Below are positions 15,583 through 62,195 of a stretch of DNA of 64,000 nt, piece after piece. The notes under the pieces were generated by a model, which worked only from the letters and a program-made list of their open reading frames with translations, did not search any database and was not told the origin of the DNA. Source of the DNA: Candidatus Cloacimonadales bacterium (GTDB taxonomy: Bacteria; Cloacimonadota; Cloacimonadia; Cloacimonadales; JAFGVF01); the NCBI GenBank assembly GCA_963677815.1, contig OY782499.1, positions 536,147 through 600,146 of the forward strand, in the 5' to 3' direction. Within the stretch, counting starts at the first letter, position 1. The number at the start of each line of letters is the position of its first letter. The translations under genes were made by a program, and so were the position numbers.

Positions 15583-15593
15583 GAAAAAAAAGT

Positions 15594-15733
15594 CTATGGG
15601 ATGAGACCATCTTTGGTCTCAGGTGGAAGCAGGGATGCTTTCACTACTCCTAACTGGGAAAACGGGTATCTTGCCCGTACCAAGCTTTCCAAGCTTGCTT
15701 TTGTGGAAGCAGGGATGCTTCCACTCCATACAA
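15594..15733 (+). repeat. R2 motif, tandem composite A1 (two-hairpin, 15594-15650) plus A2 (three-hairpin, 15651-15733)
   Basis: Hairpins are tgagacca-tctt-tggtctca, gtggaagca-ggga-tgctttcac, acgggta-tct-tgcccgt, caagc-tttccaa-gcttg and gtggaagca-ggga-tgcttccac. The composite ends in the family tail ccactccatacaa. Confidence 0.75.
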
Positions 15734-15753
15734 AATTTCTTCTCTCATTGCTT

Positions 15754-15832: not shown

Positions 15833-17458
15833 CTAATTTAACCTACGAGCCAAGCGGAAGCCCAGATAGTTGTAGCAATTAGACGGGTAATAGTAGTTGC
15901 GATAAGCTACCCGGCAGAAGTTAGCAAAGCCGTACCAGCTACCGCCCCGATACACACGGCGATAGCCACTAGCAGGTCCCACCGGATTAGTCTGAGCATT
16001 GGAAGAATAAGATCCATACCAATCATTACACCACTCATAAACATTACCGGACATATCATATATACCTAAACCATTAGGAGCCTTAGTTCCTACATTGTGT
16101 GTCGTGGAACTGGAATTATCATAATACCAAGCCACACTATTAATATCATCAGAACCTGCATAAAGGTAATCTGGATTATAAGTCCCACCTCTGGCTGCAT
16201 ATTCCCATTCTGCTTCTGTTGGTAACCTGTAGCCATTGGCTGAGTAATCACATTCCCAAGTACTAGTATTATAGCATGGTGTTAAACCTTCTTGAATACT
16301 TCTGGCATTACAGTATTCAACTGCATCATACCAGCTTACTTGTTCCACAGGTTTATCTAAACCTGAGAAATAAGAAGGATTAGTCCCCATCACAGCTTGA
16401 TATTCAGCTTGAGTAACTTCATATTTACCTATATAAAACGATGAGAGACTTACTTGGTGGGTTGGGACTTCGTCAGAATCTCCTGTTCCTGTTGTTCTTC
16501 CCATAGTGAAAGTCCCTGCAGGTACTAAAACAAAATTATCTGGTATCGTATATATTTCCTCTTCTACAAAAGCACTTTCAAAATCTTGATAAAAGCTTTT
16601 AACTCGATAAAGGTAAATAGATGATGATTCAATATCGCTATCTTCATACTCTTGAGAATTTGCACCCAAGACTGCATACTCTTCTATCCAGTCTTCATTA
16701 TCCTTTTTCCTTGCTATTTTAAATCCATCTTCACCCTGATTATTGTCTACCCAAGACAAATAAACTGATATAAGAGATGTTTGGACTATTTGTAAATTGC
16801 TTGGTGGTGTGAACTCATTATTAACAGAAGTTTCAATAAAATCTGAGTTTACTGTTTCATAATAACTCATTACTCTGTATACATATTCAGAATTAGGCAG
16901 AATTGAATTATCTTCATACTCTAGAGAATTTTGTTCCAATACAGCATATTCTTCTATCCAGTCGTCAGTATCCTTTTTCCTTGCTATTTTAAAGCCTTCT
17001 TCCCACTGATTATTGTCTTCCCAAGTCAATCGAACTGATGTAGGAGATGTTTGGACTATTTGCAAATTTCTTGGTGGTGAGAACTCAGTATTAATAGTAG
17101 TTTCAATAAACTCTGAGCTTATCTCATCATAACATGCCTTCACCCTATACTTATACTCACTATTAGGTATGATATTGCTATCAATATACTCCGTTAAACT
17201 CTCTGTTACTGTAGCATAATCTACATTCCAATCTTCATTATCCTTTTTTCTTGCGATTTTAAATCCTTCTTCACTCAATGAGTTATCTTGCCAAGTTAAC
17301 CTACATTTATTAACAGCTATTTGTTCAATATTGAGATTAGAAGGTCCTGGTAATGTGTAAGAGGGGTCATAAGGATTCACAAAATCATCATTATCACATG
17401 ACCCTATTATTAAAGCAGTAAGTATTAATATTATTAAATTAATAAGTTTTTTTTGCAT
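15833..17458 (-). CDS. Lipoprotein with three Fn3-like repeats and a C-terminal formylglycine-generating-enzyme (SUMF1/FGE-sulfatase) domain
   Basis: Lipobox IIGSC. There are three ~90-aa repeats (LTWxDNxxxEEGFKIARKKDxxDW...YxYRV). The FGE-type C-terminus includes GNVYEWCNDWY and RVYRGGSW. I moved the start to the ATG at 17458, which has AGGAGG upstream. The track start at 17497 overlaps the upstream gene. Confidence 0.8.
   Translation of the reverse strand: MQKKLINLIILILTALIIGSCDNDDFVNPYDPSYTLPGPSNLNIEQIAVNKCRLTWQDNSLSEEGFKIARKKDNEDWNVDYATVTESLTEYIDSNIIPNSEYKYRVKACYDEISSEFIETTINTEFSPPRNLQIVQTSPTSVRLTWEDNNQWEEGFKIARKKDTDDWIEEYAVLEQNSLEYEDNSILPNSEYVYRVMSYYETVNSDFIETSVNNEFTPPSNLQIVQTSLISVYLSWVDNNQGEDGFKIARKKDNEDWIEEYAVLGANSQEYEDSDIESSSIYLYRVKSFYQDFESAFVEEEIYTIPDNFVLVPAGTFTMGRTTGTGDSDEVPTHQVSLSSFYIGKYEVTQAEYQAVMGTNPSYFSGLDKPVEQVSWYDAVEYCNARSIQEGLTPCYNTSTWECDYSANGYRLPTEAEWEYAARGGTYNPDYLYAGSDDINSVAWYYDNSSSTTHNVGTKAPNGLGIYDMSGNVYEWCNDWYGSYSSNAQTNPVGPASGYRRVYRGGSWYGFANFCRVAYRNYYYPSNCYNYLGFRLARRLN
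16560..17345 (-). repeat. Intragenic tandem repeat, 3 x 270 nt (the Fn3-like modules)
   Basis: cttctatccagtc at 16681 and 16951, and ctacattccaatc at 17221, give an exact 270-nt period. Units 2 and 3 are highly similar at the DNA level. Confidence 0.8.
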
Positions 17459-19561: not shown

Positions 19562-19639
19562 TTCAATCCTCAAGTTATTCTTTCCAATAGCTTATCTTTA
19601 AATAAGTCGATAAAATTTCACATCTTTACCTTTTCTTGA
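19562..19639 (+). repeat. R3 repeat, copy 1 (78 nt)
   Basis: 70 of 78 positions are identical to 39576-39653 (ttcaatcctcaagtta...atagcttatctttaaa...gtcgataa...tttaccttttcttga). Confidence 0.85.
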
Positions 19640-19768
19640 AATTTTTTCAAGATTGTTTATTGGTAACAAAGCCTCTTCTGTCGGAAGGCCTGTCTTCCCT
19701 AGCTTTAGCGAAGGGAGATGGAGATTCTCTCCGCCATCTGCGTAACCGCGGGCTGAAATCCCAATACC

Positions 19769-19897
19769 CTATGGACTGGCAGCATCTTGCTGCCAGATTA
19801 ACAGGCTTTGTAAGCCTGTTGTGGATGCAAGATGCACCCACTCCATACAATCCTTTCTCTATTTTAAATTTCTTGTTTTTATTTTTACACAGCCTGG
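19769..19897 (+). repeat. R2 motif, copy B (three-hairpin core 19769-19850 plus downstream module tttttacacagcctgg at 19883-19897)
   Basis: The sequence is ctatggactgg, then hp1 ctggcagca-tct-tgctgccag, hp2 acaggc-tttgtaa-gcctgt, hp3 gtggatgca-aga-tgcacccac, then the tail ccactccatacaa. Confidence 0.8.
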
Positions 19898-19934
19898 CCC
19901 GTCTTCCCAGTTAGGAAACAGCTTCTTTACTTTT

Positions 19935-19990
19935 AGATTGTTACTTACTCATTAAATCATTGGCATTTTATCGAGAGAGTAACAATGAAG
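19935..19990 (+). repeat. R4 hairpin repeat, copy 1
   Basis: agattgttacttactc-attaaatcattggcattttatc-gagagagtaacaat aligns with 62114-62174 and with the reverse complement of 48603-48666. Confidence 0.65.
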
Positions 19991-20149
19991 AGACAGGAAA
20001 TAAGGCAAGTGAGTGATACTGAATCAAGCCTTACCCAAGTGAAAAAGCAACTAAAGGTGATTAAATTGCATTCTAGAGATATAATCTTGACATATCATAA
20101 GCTCTAATCTTTCTATTCAGAACATATAAATAAAATAAAGGGGCACAAA

Positions 20150-22903: not shown

Positions 22904-22917
22904 GGCTCAATTTCTAC

Positions 22918-22975
22918 CTATGGACTGAGACCATCTCTGGTCTCAGGTGGAAGTAAGGATACTTCCACTCCATAC
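22918..22975 (+). repeat. R2 motif, copy C (minimal two-hairpin form)
   Basis: The sequence is ctatggact, then hp1 ctgagacca-tctc-tggtctcag, hp3 gtggaagta-agga-tacttccac, then tccatac. tatgga near the 5' end can pair with tccata at the 3' end. Confidence 0.8.
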
Positions 22976-23052
22976 TTTAATTTGGAGAAATACTAAAAAA
23001 TTAAAACTTGCCAAAAAAACTCTAACATTTAAATAGAGGATAGGAGGATAAT

Positions 23053-29231: not shown

Positions 29232-29263
29232 CATATAAAAGACCATTAACAAAGTTGTTTTTG

Positions 29264-29356
29264 TCAGGTCCGGTGCAACTTTAACCCTCGAACCATGTCA
29301 GGTCAGGAATGAAGCAGCATTAAGAGGTGCTTAAAGTGTGCAACCGGTAGCCTGGC
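29264..29356 (+). ncRNA. ffs: Signal recognition particle RNA (small, 4.5S-type)
   Basis: Has the conserved domain IV core gtcaggtcaGGAAtgaagcagc (GGAA tetraloop plus the AGCAGC symmetric-loop strand). The 5' gtcaggtccgg pairs with the 3' ccggtagcctggc. A T7 run follows. Confidence 0.8.
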
Positions 29357-29493
29357 TTTTTTTATATCCAATTTTATAAAAACCCACTTATAACAAGATT
29401 ATTCCCAAACACAAGAAAAAAATATCGAAAAAAACTTGCCAAAAAAGCAATTCCTACTAAATTAGTATATAATACTAAATAAAAGGATGAAAG

Positions 29494-39257: not shown

Positions 39258-39283
39258 TTGTACCCATTTTTTGTTCTTTGTTC

Positions 39284-39575: not shown

Positions 39576-39653
39576 TTCAATCCTCAAGTTACTATTTCTA
39601 ATAGCTTATCTTTAAACATGTCGATAATATTGCACATATTTACCTTTTCTTGA
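39576..39653 (+). repeat. R3 repeat, copy 2 (78 nt)
   Basis: About 90% identical to 19562-19639. Confidence 0.85.
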
Positions 39654-40169
39654 CTTTGGTGAAAAATTATGATTAGTAACATATACCCTACATTGGATTG
39701 GATTTCCGATAAGACACATCTTTTTTCAAGTAGCAGGAGTAAATTCATAAAAATCTCGGAGAGATGCAGATATAATAGGCATCCTTCCAGGATTAATGAG
39801 GATATATTTCAATATCCGAAATTTAGACAAGAATGTATTTATAAGTCAATTTGAAAAACTTAGCTATAAACTTAAAAATGTGCATGAATTGCTTTAGTTA
39901 GCACGAGTACATGCTATCTTTCAATTGTTTAGATTGAACAGTCTCAACATATTTACCATGGATTTGTAACCAAGTTATTGATTGTATATCTATTTAAATT
40001 TAAGATCTTAAAGAAGTTCTTGACATAAATTTGCAAATTACATAACTTTGGATTATGATAATTGATGTTGAAAAATAAATTGTCAGAGTATGAAATTTTA
40101 TTAGATTAACCGGTCCAGTTTCATTATAAGCTTTTAGTTTATAAAAAATATAATTAACTAATATATTAA

Positions 40170-41138
40170 ATGGATGTAAAAATGAAGAGACTTCTTCTAA
40201 TGTTATTAATTCTATTTATCATAATTCTACAATTATATGCTGATAGATATGAGTCAGTTCTTGTTGATACAATATACTGTGAACCTAACTCTATGACTGG
40301 GGATATTATTTATAATATGGAGTATAATGATTATTACTATTTCCCCAATGAACCATCCTTAAACATTGCTTATGATCAGAACTCTTTTCTAGGACCAGGT
40401 GTCACTGAATGTAGATCATTTGTTACATTCGAGACTAAACCAGTACCTAATAATTACCTTATATCAAATGTAATACTTCAACTTTACTGTTGGTATTATT
40501 GGGATAATGGGATAGAGTATATATGGCCACACTACTATTCGACCCCCTACACAGTCAATATTGATCATATACAATATGAGACAATAGCTCCTTCTGTTTT
40601 TGATATTGAATCACTTACTTCCAATGTAGGGGTCTTGCAGGACAGTGCTTATGTTGGTTGGGTCTCTTCTCTGGTTTCCGAGAGCTATCTTGACGATATT
40701 GAACAATCACGAGAATATTCGCAGTTTAGGCTGAGATTCCCACCAGGCCATGATATAGTCGGATATTCATCAGATTATGTATATTATGAAAATAACCCAT
40801 CTTCGTTTAGTTCATTTAATCCACACCTAATTGTAACCTACCATAAAACAGTTTCAAATTCTCAAGATGTTGAATCTATACCGAATCAGTTAATCAAACA
40901 AGTTTATCCACAACCTAGTAAAAATAATTTCAATATTGAATTTATGGATAAAGATAATAAACCCATTAATCTGTCTCTTTATGACCTTCGAGGTAGATTA
41001 GTTCACTCTGAAATCAATGTAGCTAAAAAAAATGGAATTGCAAAAATTCCAGTTTTAGATTATCCATCAGGCATATATTTTCTCAAGGTTAAAGCTGACA
41101 AGAAAAGCGAAGTTAGGAAAATAACTATTTTGAAATAA
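40170..41138 (+). CDS. Secreted protein of unknown function with T9SS C-terminal sorting domain (tandem paralog 1)
   Basis: Has a signal peptide and the C-terminal tail YPQPSKNNFNIEF...LSLYDLRGRLV...GIYFLKVK. An alternative start is the ATG at 40182. Confidence 0.7.
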   Translation: MDVKMKRLLLMLLILFIIILQLYADRYESVLVDTIYCEPNSMTGDIIYNMEYNDYYYFPNEPSLNIAYDQNSFLGPGVTECRSFVTFETKPVPNNYLISNVILQLYCWYYWDNGIEYIWPHYYSTPYTVNIDHIQYETIAPSVFDIESLTSNVGVLQDSAYVGWVSSLVSESYLDDIEQSREYSQFRLRFPPGHDIVGYSSDYVYYENNPSSFSSFNPHLIVTYHKTVSNSQDVESIPNQLIKQVYPQPSKNNFNIEFMDKDNKPINLSLYDLRGRLVHSEINVAKKNGIAKIPVLDYPSGIYFLKVKADKKSEVRKITILK

Positions 41139-41162
41139 ATGCCCAAACAAGAGGAGAAAAAG

Positions 41163-42119
41163 ATGAAAATGAAAATCCTTTTATTACTATTTTTAATTCA
41201 CACGATAATACCGATTTATGCTCAAGAAGACGATTCAGTTCTTGTTGATACAATATACTCTGAACCTATACCTATGACTGGGAATATTATCTACAACATG
41301 GAATCTCATGATTATTACCATTACCCCAATATGACATCCTTAATTATTGCATATAATATGAGATTTGATTTACCTGTTGGCATTGAAGAAAGTAGATCGT
41401 TTATTACATTTGATACTAAGCCAGTGCCTAATAATTACATTATAGCAAGTGTAACTCTTCAACTTTATTGTTGTTACTATTGGGATAACAGCATAGATCT
41501 TATATGGCCTCACTACTATTCGACCCCATACTCAGTCATTATTGACCACATCCAATTTGAGACCTTAACTCCTTCCGTTTTTGATCTTGAACCCCTTACA
41601 GCTAATGTGGGGGTCTTGCAGGATAGTGCTTATATTGGTTGGGTCTCCTTTCCGATTACCGAGAGCTATCTTAACGATATTGAACAAACTAGAGAATATT
41701 CGCAGTTTAGGCTGAGATTCCCTCCAGGTCATGATATAGTCGGATATTCATCAGATTATGTTGCATATGCAAATAACCCATCTTCATCTAATTCATTTGA
41801 TCCACACCTAATCGTAACCTACCATAAATCAGTGTCAAATTCTCAAGAGGTTGAACCCTTGCAGACTCAGCTAATCAAACTGATATATCCACAACCTAGT
41901 AAAAATAATTTCAATATTGAATTTATGGATAAAGATAATAAACCCATTAATCTGTCTCTTTATGATCTCCGAGGTAGATTAGTTCACTCTGAAATCAATG
42001 TAGCTAAAAAAAATGGAATTGCAAAAATTCCAACTTTAGATTATCCATCAGGCATATATTTCCTCAAGGTTAAAGATGGAAATAAAAGCGAAGTTAGGAA
42101 AATAACTATTTTGAAATAG
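41163..42119 (+). CDS. Secreted protein of unknown function with T9SS C-terminal sorting domain (tandem paralog 2)
   Basis: I chose the ATG at 41163 (MKMKILLLLFL), which has GAGGAG 6 nt upstream. The track ATG at 41139 directly abuts the paralog-1 stop and lacks an SD. Confidence 0.7.
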   Translation: MKMKILLLLFLIHTIIPIYAQEDDSVLVDTIYSEPIPMTGNIIYNMESHDYYHYPNMTSLIIAYNMRFDLPVGIEESRSFITFDTKPVPNNYIIASVTLQLYCCYYWDNSIDLIWPHYYSTPYSVIIDHIQFETLTPSVFDLEPLTANVGVLQDSAYIGWVSFPITESYLNDIEQTREYSQFRLRFPPGHDIVGYSSDYVAYANNPSSSNSFDPHLIVTYHKSVSNSQEVEPLQTQLIKLIYPQPSKNNFNIEFMDKDNKPINLSLYDLRGRLVHSEINVAKKNGIAKIPTLDYPSGIYFLKVKDGNKSEVRKITILK

Positions 42120-44731: not shown

Positions 44732-44782
44732 ATTCATAATTATTTCAGACTCTCTCCAAAGAAGAGTGGGAGCAAAATATAA

Positions 44783-45011
44783 GGCTCAAGCTCAAGTCTG
44801 GTGGAAAAAATTTAATAAAATATAAAATTTTATCATTAGTGTGATTATCCAAAGTATCCCTGAAAGGGATATAAGACCTATCCTTTCAGGATTATATCTT
44901 ATTCTGCTAAAATAATACTATCAATAGTAACTTATAATCCGTAAACTACTGTAATACAATATCTAGTGCAAAATAATGCAACATAATTTCCACCAGACTT
45001 GAACTTGAGCC
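44783..45011. repeat. 25-nt inverted-repeat pair bounding a 179-nt AT-rich segment (MITE-like or long-stem element)
   Basis: ggctcaagctcaagtctggtggaaa (44783-44807) matches the reverse complement of 44987-45011 (ggctcaagttcaagtctggtggaaa) at 24 of 25 positions. Confidence 0.75.
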
Positions 45012-45078
45012 AAATATAATAGTAAATGAAGAAGTTTATTCTCATCAGTCTTACGACGAAGATGGCGGAGAAAATCTC

Positions 45079-45206
45079 CAGACTGTGTAAAAATGAAAAT
45101 GAGATTTTCAGATGGAGCAAGGGTTGTATGGAGTGGATGCATCTTGCATCTACAACAGGCTCTGAAAGCCTGTTTAATCTGGAGGCAAGATGCCTCCAGT
45201 CCATAG
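45079..45206 (-). repeat. R2 motif, copy D (three-hairpin core 45206-45124 plus downstream module tttttacacagtctgg, read on the minus strand)
   Basis: The minus strand reads ctatggactgg, then hp1 ctggaggca-tct-tgcctccag, hp2 acaggc-tttcaga-gcctgt, hp3 gtagatgca-aga-tgcatccac, then the tail ccactccatacaa. Confidence 0.8.
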
Positions 45207-45436
45207 ATCAACCTTCCCAGTTAGGAAGCATCACTGCTGGCATTCAGACTCTGTGAAACTCTGTGTTAAGGATCTTTCTTCTTTTTAGTGCAATTAGTGT
45301 AATCCGTGGATAGACTATTTCTTTTTACACAGTCTGCTCCACCGTCCGACAGAAGAGAATAATAGGAGACCGGAGTTCCTCAGCTCTAGGCAAAGGACTT
45401 CGGACGAAGCAGACCCACTCTACTTGAAAGAAATCC

Positions 45437-48247
45437 TTATTTCATCAATACCATCTTCCCACTTATAGCCTTACTAGTAGTTTTTATTTTATATAGATAT
45501 ACTCCAGAAGCTACTTTATTACCCTGCTTGTCTCTTCCCGTCCATAGGACTTTTTGTTTACCTGCTAACTGTTCTTCATTAAGCAAAGTCTTTACTAATT
45601 GCCCTTTCAAGTTATAAATATCTACTTTCACTGGTCCAGTTTTTGGTAAATCATAAGAAATAGTAGTTTCAGGATTAAAAGGATTAGGATAATTATAAGT
45701 TGTAAAAGTAAGAGGAACTACTTCATCAGAATTATTTGGGACAAAGTAAGATAAGTCAATTAAATCACAAAAAACTCCTGGATTATTCGATAAATCATTT
45801 TCAATTCTACTAACATAAATACTATTATTATCAATCACACTTATTGCTGGTTTATATTGATATGTGAGATTTAAAGGTAAGGCAAATCCATCTTGAAATT
45901 GGTCTAATTGACCTTGAAAATTAATAGTCCTTAAATACACCCTCTGACTACCTGGAAGCTCTTGAGTATAAGCAAGCACAAATCTATCTTCCAAGGCTTT
46001 AAGAGAAAAGTCACTAACATACTCAGCTAATGTTTCTTGCCACACTTCCTCAAAATTATTATCTAAATTATAGCAGGATATTACTAATTCATCATTATTA
46101 TTATGGAACTTATAAAATCTATTATCAATTACATGGGATTCAATAATGTTATTATTAGTGCAAGGAAAAGTATAGTTAACTGTTTGTGACAAATCATCCA
46201 GATTAATATCAAAGACTTTGTATGTATCATTTGTGGAATATGAGAAGAGTAATCTATTTTGATAAGAAGAGATATTTCTATTTCTCGAAATATAATCATA
46301 ATCATCAGTAAAACTTTGACCTTCAGCAGTCCAACCATTAGCCAGTTCCCCTTCAGCGTCTATCTGAGTAATTTTGAAGTCTCCATTATATCTACTTATA
46401 AGATAATTGTCTTCAACTGCTAATAAGTCTAAATTCTCAATGGGTATATAAGAGATGGCAAGCATATTACCATCTTCAATTTTATTAAAAACATAATCTG
46501 CTCCTCCCCAATCAGAAGTCTTGTAAACAAACCAGCCATTACCCTCTTCAATGTCAGTCAAATAATCATAAGAATAATCTCCACCAAATCCACCGTGGAG
46601 TATCATTGTCTCTATGCTTCCATCTTCCTTGAATAATTTAGCTCTTTGACTTACACTAACTCCTGTACCATAATGATAAATATTATAATAAACTAGATAG
46701 CTATTTTCTGATATTCTATGCAAAGAACTATTTCCACAATCAGTAAGAATATTTTCTAATCCTATTGGCATACCACTTTCATCTACCCCACTCTCCAAAA
46801 AACAGTTCCATGAAAACATTACTGCATTATTATTATCATTCCAAATGAATGAATTGACCTTGTCTATCTCATAAGGAAATGACACAGCTATTTCCTGAGG
46901 ATTTGAAGTTGCATCAGATGCCGATTCATAAGCAATAAAATGTTGTTTATAAGCAGAATAATACCCAAGTCTATGATTAACAATAAAGGAAGCACTTGTA
47001 GCTCCTAGATTAACAAAAAGGGCAGAATCTTCACCACAGTCTCCCGATATATAATCCTCAGCAAAAATCAGAGAGTTATCATTGAGATTATAACTATAAA
47101 AACCTACCTTAACACCATAATTTGCTTGCAAATAGTCTGTTTTACTTACAAGTACAAGCCTATAGTTTTCACCTACTATCTCACTATCTACACTGGTAAT
47201 TTGATCAAAAATATAATTAAATCCATCAAAAATCGAGCCGAATATCTCATAGTGATTAGTTGAATTAATTAAACTTCCATCAATGTTATATTCTCTTAAA
47301 AGAAGAACATCACCTATCGATACAGCTAAAAATTCATTTTCTGAAATTTTTTGTACATCTAGCAAAGGATATTCTAAAGTAGTAGTAGTAAATTCACCAA
47401 GTAGTCGATCATAGATAAAGACGTCAGGATATTGCCCCATAGAACTAAATAAGTTTGCAGAAGCTTCTGTAATTAATCCAAAGAGTACTTTATCATTACT
47501 TAGCTCTAATATCTTGCATGTCTTATATAAATTTTCATCAAAGACACTCGAAACATAAGAGTTGTAATTATCAATCTCATGGTCTGTATTACCTATTCTT
47601 ATGAATAGCTTACTCTCGTCAGGTTGTAACCACATGTAGGTAAGTCCATCACTTGTTATTGCTCCAGTATAAGACACAAGATTTTCACCCTCGGCAATAA
47701 TATTCTGACTTATTATTTGTGGTATATTATTTACAAGATTAATCTTATAATTGGTCAGACAATCATCGTAATCTACCGAGCCATAGTTCACTAGTACATA
47801 GATATCATTTTCATCTTCCAATAACTGAACCTCTTTTAATATTCCATCTGCATACTCAAGTAAGTAAATTTCTAAAGGTAAGTCCCATAAATCTAAACCA
47901 GCACTTGAAATCTTCTTAACCAATAGCCTGTTTCCATCTTCCCAATATATAAAAAAGTTGCCATCTGCACTTCTTTTAATTTCGAATAACCATTCTTCAT
48001 CTATCTGAAAGTTTAAATCAATAGCCTGCTCTAATAATGGGTCTCCAGTTTGAGAATATTTTTCTAATAAGAGTTGATTATTTAAAGTATAAAATATTAT
48101 TGTTCCTTCTGGAATATTTTCTTTATAAACTATTGAACTTTTACTTCTTTGATACATACAAGCAGATTGGTCCCATATAACCTGAGATAATAGACAACTG
48201 ATAGCAGTCAAGAATAGTATAGCAAGTACAAGATTTTTCTTATTCAC
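45437..48247 (-). CDS. Large secreted protein of unknown function with T9SS C-terminal sorting domain
   Basis: Has a signal peptide and the C-terminus NYPNPFNPETTISYDLPKTGPVKVDIYNLKGQLV...GVYLYKI. AGGAGGA sits upstream of the ATG. Confidence 0.75.
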   Translation of the reverse strand: MNKKNLVLAILFLTAISCLLSQVIWDQSACMYQRSKSSIVYKENIPEGTIIFYTLNNQLLLEKYSQTGDPLLEQAIDLNFQIDEEWLFEIKRSADGNFFIYWEDGNRLLVKKISSAGLDLWDLPLEIYLLEYADGILKEVQLLEDENDIYVLVNYGSVDYDDCLTNYKINLVNNIPQIISQNIIAEGENLVSYTGAITSDGLTYMWLQPDESKLFIRIGNTDHEIDNYNSYVSSVFDENLYKTCKILELSNDKVLFGLITEASANLFSSMGQYPDVFIYDRLLGEFTTTTLEYPLLDVQKISENEFLAVSIGDVLLLREYNIDGSLINSTNHYEIFGSIFDGFNYIFDQITSVDSEIVGENYRLVLVSKTDYLQANYGVKVGFYSYNLNDNSLIFAEDYISGDCGEDSALFVNLGATSASFIVNHRLGYYSAYKQHFIAYESASDATSNPQEIAVSFPYEIDKVNSFIWNDNNNAVMFSWNCFLESGVDESGMPIGLENILTDCGNSSLHRISENSYLVYYNIYHYGTGVSVSQRAKLFKEDGSIETMILHGGFGGDYSYDYLTDIEEGNGWFVYKTSDWGGADYVFNKIEDGNMLAISYIPIENLDLLAVEDNYLISRYNGDFKITQIDAEGELANGWTAEGQSFTDDYDYISRNRNISSYQNRLLFSYSTNDTYKVFDINLDDLSQTVNYTFPCTNNNIIESHVIDNRFYKFHNNNDELVISCYNLDNNFEEVWQETLAEYVSDFSLKALEDRFVLAYTQELPGSQRVYLRTINFQGQLDQFQDGFALPLNLTYQYKPAISVIDNNSIYVSRIENDLSNNPGVFCDLIDLSYFVPNNSDEVVPLTFTTYNYPNPFNPETTISYDLPKTGPVKVDIYNLKGQLVKTLLNEEQLAGKQKVLWTGRDKQGNKVASGVYLYKIKTTSKAISGKMVLMK

Positions 48248-48264
48248 TTTATCCTCCTCTGTTT

Positions 48265-48459
48265 AACCCAGATTGTGCAATAGAGCTTTAGTAATACTTC
48301 GCTAAAGCTACGTATCACAGGCGAAGAGTGCATATTCTTTTAGCAAAATAGCTTACAGAATTCCGACGCATATAATATATATATTCGGAAGAATTATGTA
48401 AGTTACTTTTGCAAAAGAATATAGTGCTATTCTCAAAGATCTATTGCATTATTTGGGTT
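48265..48459 (+). repeat. R1 repeat, copy 3 (195 nt)
   Basis: The ends aacccagattgtgcaatagag ... atctattgcattatttgggtt pair. The left end is 18 nt from the start codon at 48247 and abuts its Shine-Dalgarno. Confidence 0.75.
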
Positions 48460-48544
48460 TAATTCATCACAACATATTTCATGCATTATTTATTCCAATT
48501 GTACATTAACTGGTTAAATTATTATCTCCAAAGATTCTTAATAT

Positions 48545-48574
48545 TTGACATTTGTATCAGTTTTTTACTATAAA
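48545..48574 (+). promoter_or_regulatory. Sigma70-type promoter candidate reading towards R4 copy 2 and the pirin gene
   Basis: TTGACA (48545-48550), an 18-nt spacer, then TATAAA (48569-48574). Confidence 0.5.
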
Positions 48575-48602
48575 GTTTCCTGAAAATTCATAAGCTTACG
48601 GT

Positions 48603-48666
48603 CTCTTGATTGTTACTCTCTCAATAAAAAGCCAATGATTTATAGAGTGATTAACAATCAAGGAAG
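48603..48666 (-). repeat. R4 hairpin repeat, copy 2 (inverted relative to copies 1 and 3)
   Basis: The reverse complement ccttgattgttaatcactctataaatcattggctttttattgagagagtaacaatcaagag aligns with 62114-62174. Confidence 0.7.
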
Positions 48667-62113: not shown

Positions 62114-62174
62114 TCCTCGATTGTTAGTCTCTCAATGAATTATTGGCTTTTTATTGAGAGACTAACAATCAAGA
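62114..62174 (+). repeat. R4 hairpin repeat, copy 3 (between convergent radC and htrA-like genes)
   Basis: An 18-bp perfect stem gattgttagtctctcaat/attgagagactaacaatc with loop gaattattggcttttt. Confidence 0.8.
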
Positions 62175-62195
62175 CACTATAATGATTAATATTAA

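What the first reader, a model, noticed from the sequence alone, without database searches (positions are those of the whole stretch)
45040..45430. R2 copy D sits inside a ~390-nt GC-enriched structured island enclosed by a perfect 15-bp long-range inverted repeat
cagactgtgtaaaaa (45079-45093, plus strand) is the exact reverse complement of tttttacacagtctg (45322-45336). The pair is 228 nt apart and encloses the R2 core (45124-45206). The same module, tttttacacagYctgg, follows the R2-B core at nearly the same distance: a 32-nt gap at 19883-19897 versus a 30-nt gap here. The conserved unit is therefore at least 130 nt.

Further shared pieces exist between the 19.6-19.9 kb and 45.0-45.4 kb islands. 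They are ctcttctgtcgga (19671-19683 and, on the minus strand, around 45354-45342), ggaga-N3-tctccgccatct (19717-19736 and, on the minus strand, around 45082-45062), and ttcccagttaggaa (19904-19917 and 45214-45227). These pieces occur in different order and orientation.

A further stem, gtctgct...cgtccga // tcggacg.agcagac, spans about 45332-45413. This is mosaic architecture like E. coli BIMEs, or a large multi-domain RNA lying downstream of the 936-aa T9SS cargo gene on the same strand.
Basis: seen in the sequence. Interest (0 to 1): 0.65.

Follow-up and report, generated by a model that had tools for sequence, protein, structure and literature searches.

The report
BIME-like mosaic of nested REP repeats
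The GC-rich island is a cluster of small palindromic "REP" DNA repeats nested inside one another, of the kind copied by dedicated RAYT transposases, sitting in a Cloacimonadota genome; it is a known type of selfish DNA in a phylum where I found no description of it, not a large RNA gene.

Summary
The perfect 15-bp inverted repeat (45079-45093 / 45322-45336) and every shared module are present. Some coordinates are off by 1-3 nt.

The window comes from a Cloacimonadota chromosome. Each module of the island belongs to a repeat family that flanks a RAYT (REP-associated tyrosine transposase) gene in related genomes:
- The R2 core is an inverted doublet of 27-nt REP units (TATGGA tag plus a 9-bp hairpin). 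It flanks RAYT clade 1.
- ctcttctgtcgga and ggagaNNNtctccgccatct together form a second REP, which flanks clade 2.
- ttcccagttaggaa is the tag of repeats that flank clade 4.
- The IR module and its neighbouring sequence recur just 3' of a clade-3 RAYT.

RAYT flanks from relatives match the window only at four GC-rich intergenic islands.

In island D, the 258-nt segment bounded by the IR splits a REP-2 unit. Deleting that segment and one GAG copy restores an intact REP-2. Both strands fold about equally well, no Rfam family matches, and close relatives lack the island at this site.

Verdict: this is a BIME-like mosaic of nested REP/REPIN elements. It is a new member of a known kind. How the nested insertion happened is unresolved.

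The parts
45041..45078 (-). 3' part of a split REP-2 unit. It holds the rest of the hairpin, GAGATTTTCTCCGCC (45078-45064), followed by ATCTTCGTCGTAAGACTGATGAG.
   Evidence: 87% identity over 46 nt to the repeats on both sides of the RAYT clade-2 gene in L026, and 85% in L028. Joined to 45337-45357, it rebuilds an intact REP-2.
45079..45093 (.). Right arm of the perfect 15-bp inverted repeat (CAGACTGTGTAAAAA on the + strand).
   Evidence: The same module lies 33-35 nt from the G-type REP of long-form R2 copies in island B, island D and L014.
45094..45125 (.). Conserved 32-nt linker between the IR arm and the R2 doublet.
   Evidence: It is part of the 130-nt block shared with island B (84%) and with L014 (89%).
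45127..45153 (+). G-type REP-1 unit: TATGGA tag plus GTGGATGCA-tct-TGCATCTAC.
   Evidence: Tag-plus-hairpin scan. The same unit type forms arrays flanking RAYT clade-1 genes in L007 and L027.
45154..45174 (.). Central hairpin AACAGGCT-ctgaa-AGCCTGTT. This is the long linker of long-form R2.
   Evidence: Alignment and pair counts. It is absent from short-form R2 copies.
45179..45205 (-). C-type REP-1 unit: TATGGA tag plus CTGGAGGCA-tct-TGCCTCCAG. It lies tail-to-tail with the G-type unit, and together they form the R2 core, a REPIN-like doublet.
   Evidence: Stems covary between copies.
45214..45227 (-). TTCCTAACTGGGAA, the tag of the repeat family that flanks RAYT clade 4. Here it is a tag without its hairpin.
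   Evidence: Exact copies at 19904-19917 and 45214-45227. Seven exact TAACTGGGAA cores flank the clade-4 RAYT in L035. L033 4190-4210 is 95% identical.
45228..45321 (-). Segment between the left IR arm and the R2 doublet. Positions 45282-45332, which include the IR arm, resemble the sequence immediately 3' of a clade-3 RAYT gene.
   Evidence: 85% over 52 nt to L033 3589-3640, which starts 19 nt after the RAYT stop codon. 45249-45272 matches L016 5604-5627 at 96% over 24 nt; the meaning of that match is unknown.
45322..45336 (.). Left arm of the perfect 15-bp inverted repeat (TTTTTACACAGTCTG on the + strand).
45337..45357 (-). 5' part of the split REP-2 unit: tag CTCTTCTGTCGGAC plus the first arm of the hairpin, GGTGGAG.
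   Evidence: 95-100% identity over 21-24 nt to the flanks of RAYT clade-2 genes in L026, L028 and L034.
45370..45414 (-). GC-rich hairpin just downstream of the stop codon of the 936-aa gene. It overlaps a degenerate, inverted copy of the REP-2 tag (TCGGACGAAGCAGAC, 45400-45414).
   Evidence: The hairpin appears in the minimum-energy folds. The similarity to the tag was read from the sequence. The consensus scan did not call a terminator here.
45012..48561 (.). A 3.55-kb segment absent from relative L031. It contains island D, the 936-aa T9SS cargo gene and a copy of the R1 repeat. Island D begins 25 nt inside its left edge.
   Evidence: BLAST against L030, L031 and L032, gene tables and the Por_Secre_tail match.
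19669..19917 (+). Island B, a mosaic of the same families. In order: REP-2 variant (19669-19745), REP-3 unit GTAACCGCGGGCTGAAATCCC (19742-19768), R2 doublet (19769-19848), linker, IR module (19882-19896), clade-4-type tag (19904-19917).
   Evidence: 19669-19745 is 88% identical over 77 nt to an L026 RAYT flank. 19732-19774 matches the L033 RAYT-3 arrays.
15586..15735 (+). Island A, an R2 doublet. Its linker carries an inserted clade-4-type REP (CTCCTAACTGGGAA plus hairpin) and a CCAAGCTT hairpin.
22916..22977 (+). Island C, a short-form R2 doublet with no linker hairpin.

Best explanation
The island is a BIME-like mosaic of REP elements, the repetitive extragenic palindromes mobilised by RAYT (Y1/HUH) transposases.

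The genome lineage carries at least four cognate pairs of RAYT clade and REP family. Each REP is a short unpaired tag followed by an 8-9-bp GC-rich hairpin. REP-1 is TATGGA plus a 9-bp stem, and it occurs as tail-to-tail doublets of two subtypes. That doublet is the 'R2 core', a REPIN-like unit. REP-2 is CTCTTCWGTCGGAC plus GGTGGAGAnnnTCTCCGCC.

In island D, a 258-nt segment (45079-45336) is bounded by the perfect 15-bp inverted repeat. It carries a REP-1 doublet, a clade-4-type tag and a fragment resembling the 3' flank of a clade-3 RAYT. This segment sits inside the hairpin of a REP-2 unit and splits it in two.

Shown here:
- the anatomy of the units;
- the match between repeat family and RAYT clade in related genomes;
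- the split of REP-2 and its reconstruction;
- presence or absence of the island among relatives.

Inferred from the known biochemistry of E. coli TnpA-REP (PMC3333891):
- RAYTs bind the folded hairpin and its tag on single-stranded DNA.
- They cut nearby through a phosphotyrosine intermediate.
- They move or recombine REP doublets preferentially next to or into resident REPs, which builds mosaics of mixed order and orientation.

Likely consequence for the host (inference): the island provides stable hairpins at the 3' ends of two convergent genes, and it marks the edge of a strain-variable gene cassette.
For: 1. A 183-aa ORF in L007 is flanked on both sides by tandem R2 units. It matches Pfam Y1_Tnp at 43 bits against a cut-off of 23. 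Its best NCBIfam hit is REP_Tyr_transpos.

2. All 22 aligned homologues match REP_Tyr_transpos better than IS200. The HUH histidines (H115, H117) and Y175 are invariant. The AlphaFold model of P0001 (pLDDT 86.7) has 4er8, E. coli TnpA-REP bound to a REP hairpin, as its best PDB fold match (E = 4e-6). All 30 significant matches are Y1 transposases.

3. Six RAYT loci were fetched by protein identity alone, not by repeat. All six carry repeat arrays on both flanks, and the family follows the RAYT clade:
- clade 1 with REP-1 (L027);
- clade 2 with REP-2 (L026, L028, L034);
- clade 3 with REP-3 (L033);
- clade 4 with TAACTGGGAA-tagged repeats (L035).
Three control loci of 21 kb each, fetched through the aminomutase gene, have no such arrays.

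4. RAYT flanks from relatives match the window only at four intergenic islands: 15586-15735, 19669-19774, 22916-22975 and 45036-45360. Almost all of 45036-45360 is covered by such modules.

5. The window's own chromosome (2,879,990 bp) is on record with P0001 (clade 1) and P0014 (clade 4).

6. Removing 45079-45336 and one GAG copy gives a REP-2 that is identical at 49 of 53 columns to an intact unit beside the L026 RAYT. The rebuilt hairpin GGTGGAGATTTTCTCCGCC occurs intact in L034. A second case is L020, where a 177-nt IR-plus-R2 segment splits a REP-2-like hairpin.

7. Hairpin stems covary between copies. Among 64 units, several C-type stem variants are all paired. In long-form R2, 90% of cells are paired against 32-45% in the slid controls, and 5 pairs change on both sides.

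8. Both strands are about equally stable.

9. The island is missing at the orthologous site in L030, L031 and L032.
Against: - The RAYT loci come from related genomes.
- No whole-genome census was possible. Copy number rests on about 240 kb of held sequence.
- The tags are not the GTAG or CGTC tags of described REP superfamilies (PMC3733652).
- The REP-1 stems are perfect, whereas E. coli TnpA-REP needs a stem mismatch (PMC3333891).
- The RAYT scores against NCBIfam REP_Tyr_transpos fall below its curated cut-off (65 against 80 bits for the L007 protein).
- Y1 transposition leaves no terminal inverted repeats and no target duplication. The 15-bp IR and the GAG repeat at the split therefore fit a RAYT-mediated insertion poorly.
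- No clade-2 or clade-3 RAYT was seen on the window's chromosome among the listed hits.
- The clade-3 and clade-4 associations each rest on one locus.
Confidence: 0.85

Rival explanations
1. The 258-nt IR-bounded segment is a MITE moved by a DDE transposase that targets REP hairpins. The REP-1 doublet inside it is a passenger. This rival concerns how the nesting arose. It is compatible with the REP/RAYT identity of the modules.
For: - The terminal inverted repeat is a perfect 15 bp.
- A 3-bp direct repeat (GAG) lies at the junctions, and excision cleanly restores the target.
- L020 has 3 extra nt at a similar split.
- There is precedent: IS elements of five families insert into REPs, and ISPsy8 always breaks the REP at the same point with a 3-base direct repeat (PMC1525189).
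Against: - Only one copy with both arms was found in about 240 kb. Elsewhere the module occurs singly, at a fixed distance from long-form R2 (B, L014, L020, L023) or beside a RAYT gene (L033).
- No transposase gene with these ends was found.
- A 3-bp repeat has a chance probability of roughly 1 in 64.
- The 16-mer gives only scattered single matches in viral contigs.
Confidence: 0.2
2. The island encodes a large structured non-coding RNA, or a set of RNA domains, transcribed with or after the T9SS cargo gene.
For: - Folding is more stable than in shuffled sequence (z = -4.8 on the minus strand).
- Hairpin stems covary.
- The island lies downstream of a gene on the same strand.
Against: - The opposite strand folds about as well (z = -4.4).
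- There are no Rfam matches.
- The modules recur in other orders, orientations and gene contexts.
- The modules form arrays around transposase genes.
- The island is absent at the orthologous site in close relatives.
- Covariation is equally expected for hairpins recognised on single-stranded DNA.
Confidence: 0.04
3. The island is a host regulatory element, namely a bidirectional terminator or mRNA-stabilising hairpins, that evolved in place for the convergent gene pair and is not mobile DNA.
For: - It lies between convergent genes.
- It forms GC-rich hairpins in an AT-rich genome.
- REPs in E. coli are known to affect termination and mRNA stability (PMC3733652).
Against: - The same units occur between divergent and tandem genes (islands A, B and C).
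- They flank RAYT genes.
- They differ in presence between near-identical loci.
- The consensus scan found no terminator.

A host role as a side effect of mobile REPs is not excluded.
Confidence: 0.05

Closest known systems
E. coli REP / BIME elements with TnpA-REP (the REPtron; Ton-Hoang et al. 2012, PMC3333891)
   Same: - Short tagged palindromes of more than one subtype, paired in inverse orientation.
- Separated by short or long linkers.
- Found as tandem arrays whose copy number varies.
- Flank a Y1/HUH transposase gene.
- Clustered into mosaics.
- The best fold match of the transposase is 4er8.
   Different: - The tag is TATGGA (REP-1) or GTCGGAC (REP-2), not GTAG.
- The stems are perfect 9-bp helices without the mismatch that the E. 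coli enzyme needs.
- There are four RAYT clades, and the RAYTs carry an N-terminal extension of about 85 aa.
- The host is a low-GC Cloacimonadota genome.
REPIN-RAYT systems of Pseudomonas (Bertels and Rainey 2011, PMC3116915; Bertels et al. 2017, PMC5581495)
   Same: - Inverted REP doublets act as the unit.
- Several RAYT paralogues are present per genome.
- RAYT genes are flanked by their own REPINs.
- Each paralogue appears once per genome.
   Different: - The sequence families are unrelated.
- Units of different families are interleaved and nested within one island.
- Group 2 or 3 membership of these RAYTs was not tested.
GTAG- and CGTC-tagged REP superfamilies (Di Nocera et al. 2013, PMC3733652)
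   Same: - Stems of 8-9 bp and loops of 3-5 nt.
- An unpaired tag at one end.
- Head-to-head or tail-to-tail dimers.
- Several families within one genome.
   Different: - The tags match neither consensus cleanly.
- Cloacimonadota is not among the 8 phyla listed in that paper.
REP-targeting insertion sequences (ISPsy8, IS1397, ISKpn1, IS621, ISPpu9; Tobes and Pareja 2006, PMC1525189)
   Same: A mobile segment sits inside a REP hairpin and leaves a 3-bp direct repeat, as at 45078/45079 and 45336/45337.
   Different: The inserted segment is 258 nt, encodes no transposase and itself carries REP units.

Membership tests
REP / REPIN-RAYT system | Short (20-40 nt) palindromic units repeated in extragenic DNA | tested here: met
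   The units are 27-28 nt (a 6-nt tag, a 9-bp stem and a 3-4-nt loop). 64 units were found in about 220 kb. All four window islands are intergenic. Whole-genome copy number could not be counted.
REP / REPIN-RAYT system | A conserved unpaired tag at the foot of the hairpin (GTAG or CGTC in described families) | tested here: inconclusive
   A conserved tag is present: TATGGA for REP-1, and GTCGGAC within CTCTTCWGTCGGAC for REP-2. It is neither GTAG nor a clean CGTC (PMC3733652).
REP / REPIN-RAYT system | The units flank a RAYT gene on both sides, in inverted orientation (Nunvar et al. 2010, PMC2817692) | tested here: met
   This holds at seven RAYT loci in related genomes: L007, L026, L027, L028, L033, L034 and L035.
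REP / REPIN-RAYT system | The transposase is a Y1/HUH enzyme of the RAYT type | tested here: met
   Pfam Y1_Tnp is above its cut-off. The HUH motif and catalytic Tyr are invariant. REP_Tyr_transpos is the best NCBIfam for 22 of 22 proteins, but the one score shown against the model's curated 80-bit cut-off, 65 bits for the L007 protein, falls below it. The best fold match is 4er8.
REP / REPIN-RAYT system | REPs organised as inverted doublets (REPINs) | tested here: met
   Every R2 is one C-type and one G-type unit placed tail-to-tail.
REP / REPIN-RAYT system | RAYT binds and cleaves the single-stranded REP | not testable with these tools
   This needs biochemistry. Here it is inferred from E. 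coli TnpA-REP (PMC3333891).
BIME (bacterial interspersed mosaic element) | REPs of different subtypes in alternating orientation, separated by defined short or long linkers, often in tandem arrays of variable length | tested here: met
   C-type and G-type units alternate. Linkers are 0-6 nt, or about 25 nt with a hairpin. Arrays have periods of about 68 nt in L007 and about 116 nt in L027, and L024 carries an array with less regular spacing.
BIME (bacterial interspersed mosaic element) | An IHF site in the long linker (BIME-1) | not tested
   No test was run.
MITE (DDE-mobilised) | Terminal inverted repeats and a target-site duplication | tested here: met
   A 15-bp perfect IR, and GAG on both sides of 45079-45336.
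MITE (DDE-mobilised) | Multiple dispersed copies with both ends, and a parent IS with the same ends | tested here: not met
   Only one two-armed copy was found in the held sequence. No IS with these ends was seen. The sampling is limited.
Described structured RNA family (Rfam 15) | A match to a covariance model | tested here: not met
   There were no matches in any island, even at E up to 10 for island D and 0.5 for islands A-C.

The most novel reading that the evidence does not exclude
The IR-bounded 258-nt unit is an active composite element that inserts specifically into the apex of hairpins belonging to a different REP family. On this reading, REP-in-REP nesting across RAYT systems is what builds these mosaics. 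Island D and L020 would then be natural snapshots of the integration step of REPIN or BIME spread, a step that has so far been proposed only from in vitro strand-exchange assays.
Probability: 0.2. Interest if true: 0.55.

Novelty: new member of a known kind. Interest (0 to 1): 0.35.

Why it matters
It explains a dense set of GC-rich intergenic islands in an AT-rich Cloacimonadota genome as selfish or domesticated DNA rather than RNA genes. This should prevent them from being annotated as sRNAs or riboswitches.

It extends REP-RAYT systems to a candidate phylum of the FCB group. The tags are not GTAG, and at least four RAYT clades are each paired with their own repeat family. That gives specialists new substrate and enzyme pairs for testing how Y1 enzymes read a tag plus a hairpin.

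The clean split of one REP by a segment that carries another is a rare sequence-level record of how mosaics form.

The islands also mark the edges of strain-variable cassettes that carry T9SS cargo genes.

Tried and rejected
- **Rfam at gathering and lenient thresholds:** only SRP RNA elsewhere in the window, and nothing in the islands.
- **tRNA or tmRNA:** none found.
- **Ribozyme or tRNA-like three-way junction for R2:** I considered this and dropped it once the unit proved to be two inverted copies of a tagged hairpin. The complementarity between the two hairpin loops is a trivial result of that inversion.
- **RAYT gene in the window:** none (tblastn).
- **Promoter and terminator scans of the island:** nothing above the shuffled background. 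An extended -10 reading of TGTGTAAAAAT was considered but has no support.
- **Genome-collection scan:** it also returned Atopobium, Nitrospira and other hits. These are chance matches inside coding sequence.
- **Metagenome scan with a long-form R2 pattern:** it gave a single contig, so no broad census was possible.
- **Viral-contig scans:** none for REP-1, one contig for REP-2, and 82 chance singles for the IR 16-mer.
- **PDB search by single sequence:** nothing found. A profile and a fold search were needed.
- **REP-3 tag as the origin of the IR module:** the similarity between CTGCGTAA and CTGTGTAA is only 7 of 8 nt, so I leave it as a lead.

Full report
**Observation**

The sequence at 45040-45430 is as described. 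The 15-mer at 45079-45093 is the exact reverse complement of 45322-45336, with 228 nt between them. Perfect inverted repeats of at least 15 bp spaced 20-400 nt apart occur at three places in the window. First-order Markov simulations of the 64 kb give 0.03.

The same module lies at 19882-19896. The other shared pieces are all present, within 1-3 nt of the stated coordinates. The island has 44.5% GC, against 30% for intergenic DNA. It lies between a lysine 2,3-aminomutase gene (+) and a 936-aa gene (-) that carries a Por_Secre_tail domain.

**Source organism**

A pattern built from the conserved ends of R2 found matches in Candidatus Cloacimonadota genomes. The other hits were chance matches inside genes. 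The aminomutase is 100% identical to a protein recorded on a 2,879,990-bp chromosome, and 95-98% identical to proteins of several other Cloacimonadales chromosomes.

**What R2 is**

Each R2 consists of two units of one design. The design is the hexamer TATGGA, then a 9-bp stem, a 3-4-nt loop beginning TC, and the return stem.

There are two subtypes:
- C-type: CTGnnnGCA / TGCnnnCAG.
- G-type: GTGGAWGCA / TGCWTCCAC.

One unit of each subtype lies tail-to-tail, with the tags on the outside. The linker between them is 0-6 nt in the short form (island C). In the long form (islands B and D) it is about 25 nt and forms its own hairpin.

Stem positions vary between copies while pairing is kept. In long-form R2, 90% of cells are paired, against 32-45% when partners are slid, and five pairs change on both sides.

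**Link to a transposase**

In locus L007 a 183-aa ORF is flanked on both sides by tandem R2 units. The evidence that it is a RAYT-type enzyme is as follows:
- It matches Pfam Y1_Tnp above the cut-off, and its best NCBIfam hit is REP-associated tyrosine transposase.
- Homologues are numerous in Cloacimonadota, and JGI names several of them RayT.
- The HUH histidines and a C-terminal tyrosine are invariant.
- All 22 aligned members score better against the RAYT model than against IS200.
- An AlphaFold model of P0001 (pLDDT 86.7), the copy recorded on the window's own chromosome, has E. coli TnpA-REP bound to a REP hairpin (4er8) as its best PDB match. The IS608, IS200 and ISDra2 transposases follow.

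**Four clades, four repeat families**

By identity the RAYTs fall into clades: 65-89% within a clade and 48-64% between clades. I fetched six RAYT loci by exact protein look-up, so they were chosen without regard to repeats.

| RAYT clade | Locus or loci | Flanking repeat family |
|---|---|---|
| 1 | L027 | REP-1 doublets |
| 2 | L026, L028, L034 | CCTCTTCWGTCGGAC-GGTGGAGAnnnTCTCCGCC, as inverted pairs |
| 3 | L033 | Arrays of GTAACCGCGGGCTGGAATCCCGCGAC |
| 4 | L035 | Repeats tagged CTTCCTAACTGGGAA |

Nineteen nt after the stop codon of the clade-3 gene lies a sequence 85% identical over 52 nt to 45282-45332, and this stretch includes the IR module.

Three control loci of 21 kb each, fetched through the aminomutase gene, have no such arrays. 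When the RAYT flanks were searched against the window, they matched only 15586-15735, 19669-19774, 22916-22975 and 45036-45360.

**Anatomy of island D**

Read on the minus strand, the parts are:

| Coordinates | Part |
|---|---|
| 45357-45337 | REP-2 tag and first hairpin arm |
| 45336-45322 | IR arm |
| 45321-45228 | Segment resembling the clade-3 RAYT 3' flank |
| 45227-45214 | Clade-4-type tag |
| 45206-45126 | R2 doublet |
| 45125-45094 | Conserved 32-nt linker |
| 45093-45079 | IR arm |
| 45078-45041 | Remainder of the REP-2 unit |

Deleting 45079-45336 and one of the two flanking GAG triplets gives a sequence identical at 49 of 53 columns to an intact REP-2 beside the L026 RAYT. The rebuilt hairpin GGTGGAGATTTTCTCCGCC occurs intact in L034. 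The long-range IR therefore marks the ends of a segment nested in another repeat.

L020, from another genome and another gene context, shows a 177-nt IR-plus-R2 segment that splits a REP-2-like hairpin and leaves 3 extra nt. In island B the IR module abuts a clade-4-type tag with half a hairpin.

**The IR module**

In the first 219 kb examined, exact TTTTTACACAG occurred only next to long-form R2. It lies 33-35 nt from the G-type unit in B, D and L014. It lies 72-74 nt from the C-type unit in L020, L023 and L029, and 116 nt in D. In every case it reads outward.

One further copy sits beside the clade-3 RAYT in L033, without an adjacent R2. Only island D has both arms. I cannot say what the module is. 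It may be related to the REP-3 tag (CTGCGTAA against CTGTGTAA), but that similarity is short.

**RNA or DNA**

- Island D folds well on both strands: RNA z = -4.8 and -4.4, and DNA z = -5.9.
- Island B gives z = -3.3 and -5.0.
- There are no Rfam matches.
- The units lie between tandem, divergent and convergent genes.

These results fit DNA palindromes rather than one strand-specific RNA.

**Variation among relatives**

Relative to L031, the window has an extra 3.55 kb (45012-48561). This segment holds island D, the T9SS gene and an R1 repeat. At the same place L030 carries a restriction-modification pair, and L032 carries a different T9SS gene. Association of BIMEs with strain-specific segments is reported for E. 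coli (cited in PMC1525189).

**Mechanism**

Shown here:
- the unit anatomy;
- the pairing of repeat family with RAYT clade;
- the nesting in island D;
- the variability among relatives.

Inferred from E. coli TnpA-REP (PMC3333891):
- The enzyme acts on single-stranded DNA.
- It needs the hairpin and its 5' tag.
- It cuts on both strands of a BIME.
- It catalyses strand exchange that can diversify, amplify and integrate BIMEs next to resident REPs.

That model predicts mosaics of this kind. It does not predict terminal inverted repeats or a target duplication. The IR and the GAG repeat therefore leave room for a DDE-type, REP-targeting insertion, for which there is precedent (ISPsy8 leaves a 3-base repeat; PMC1525189). 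I give that reading of the nesting step about 0.2.

**Comparison with what is known**

The system works like REP/BIME-RAYT, and it meets the tests I could run: extragenic tagged palindromes, inverted doublets, RAYT genes flanked by their own family, and a Y1/HUH enzyme.

It differs in several ways:
- the tag sequences are not GTAG or CGTC (PMC3733652);
- the REP-1 stems are perfect;
- the RAYTs have an N-terminal extension;
- there are four clades;
- the host phylum is Cloacimonadota.

Full-text searches found no paper that describes REPs or RAYTs in Cloacimonadota.

**Limits**

- The RAYT flanks were seen only in related genomes.
- Copy numbers come from about 240 kb of sequence.
- The clade-3 and clade-4 links each rest on one locus.
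- No clade-2 or clade-3 RAYT was seen on this chromosome among the listed hits. Its REP-2 copies, both degenerate or split, may be orphans.

Noticed in passing
One copy lies directly upstream of the 936-aa T9SS gene. The copy at 39275 carries an inserted hairpin of the type that flanks the clade-4 RAYT in L035. It may be a shared promoter or leader of cargo-gene cassettes.
   Followed up: partly
window 45012-48561, compared with L030, L031 and L032: The site between the lysine 2,3-aminomutase and Pirin genes is a strain-variable hotspot. It is empty in L031, holds an EcoRV-like restriction-modification pair in L030, and holds different T9SS cargo genes in the window and in L032.
   Followed up: partly
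window 44777-44807 and 44987-45017: A 31-nt inverted repeat (90%) with 179 nt between its arms. Relative to L031, the stretch 44774-44867 is an inverted duplicate of the sequence that follows the aminomutase terminator.
   Followed up: partly
window 19562-19654 and 39576-39668; 19936-19999, 48596-48664 and 62114-62182: Two further intergenic repeat families (84-86% identity, 64-93 nt), located next to gene starts. They were not matched by any RAYT flank.
   Followed up: no
L028 2004-3459 and L033 981-2000: A reverse-transcriptase gene (RVT_1, with an HRDC gene in L028) lies about 0.5 kb (L028) and about 1 kb (L033) from the clade-2 and clade-3 RAYT genes in two genomes.
   Followed up: no
L007 793-1060 and 3960-4340; L033 3745-4095: Tandem REP arrays have regular periods of 68 nt and 53 nt. 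A paper on CRISPR annotation lists unusually long direct repeats (37-46 bp) as 'CRISPRs' in Ca. Cloacamonas acidaminovorans (PMC5011713). Such arrays might be misannotated REP arrays.
   Followed up: no
L036 (IMG/VR contig IMGVR_UViG_3300001336_000216) 2570-2601: An intact REP-2 unit occurs on a 19.6-kb contig that is classed as viral.
   Followed up: no
window 29262-29360: Bacterial small SRP RNA (75.5 bits). It is the only Rfam match in the window.
   Followed up: yes
window 16639-17295; 40170-42119: Three 270-nt tandem repeats lie inside the 554-aa ORF. Separately, there is a tandem pair of paralogous genes (322 and 326 aa, 73-84% identical at the DNA level).
   Followed up: no
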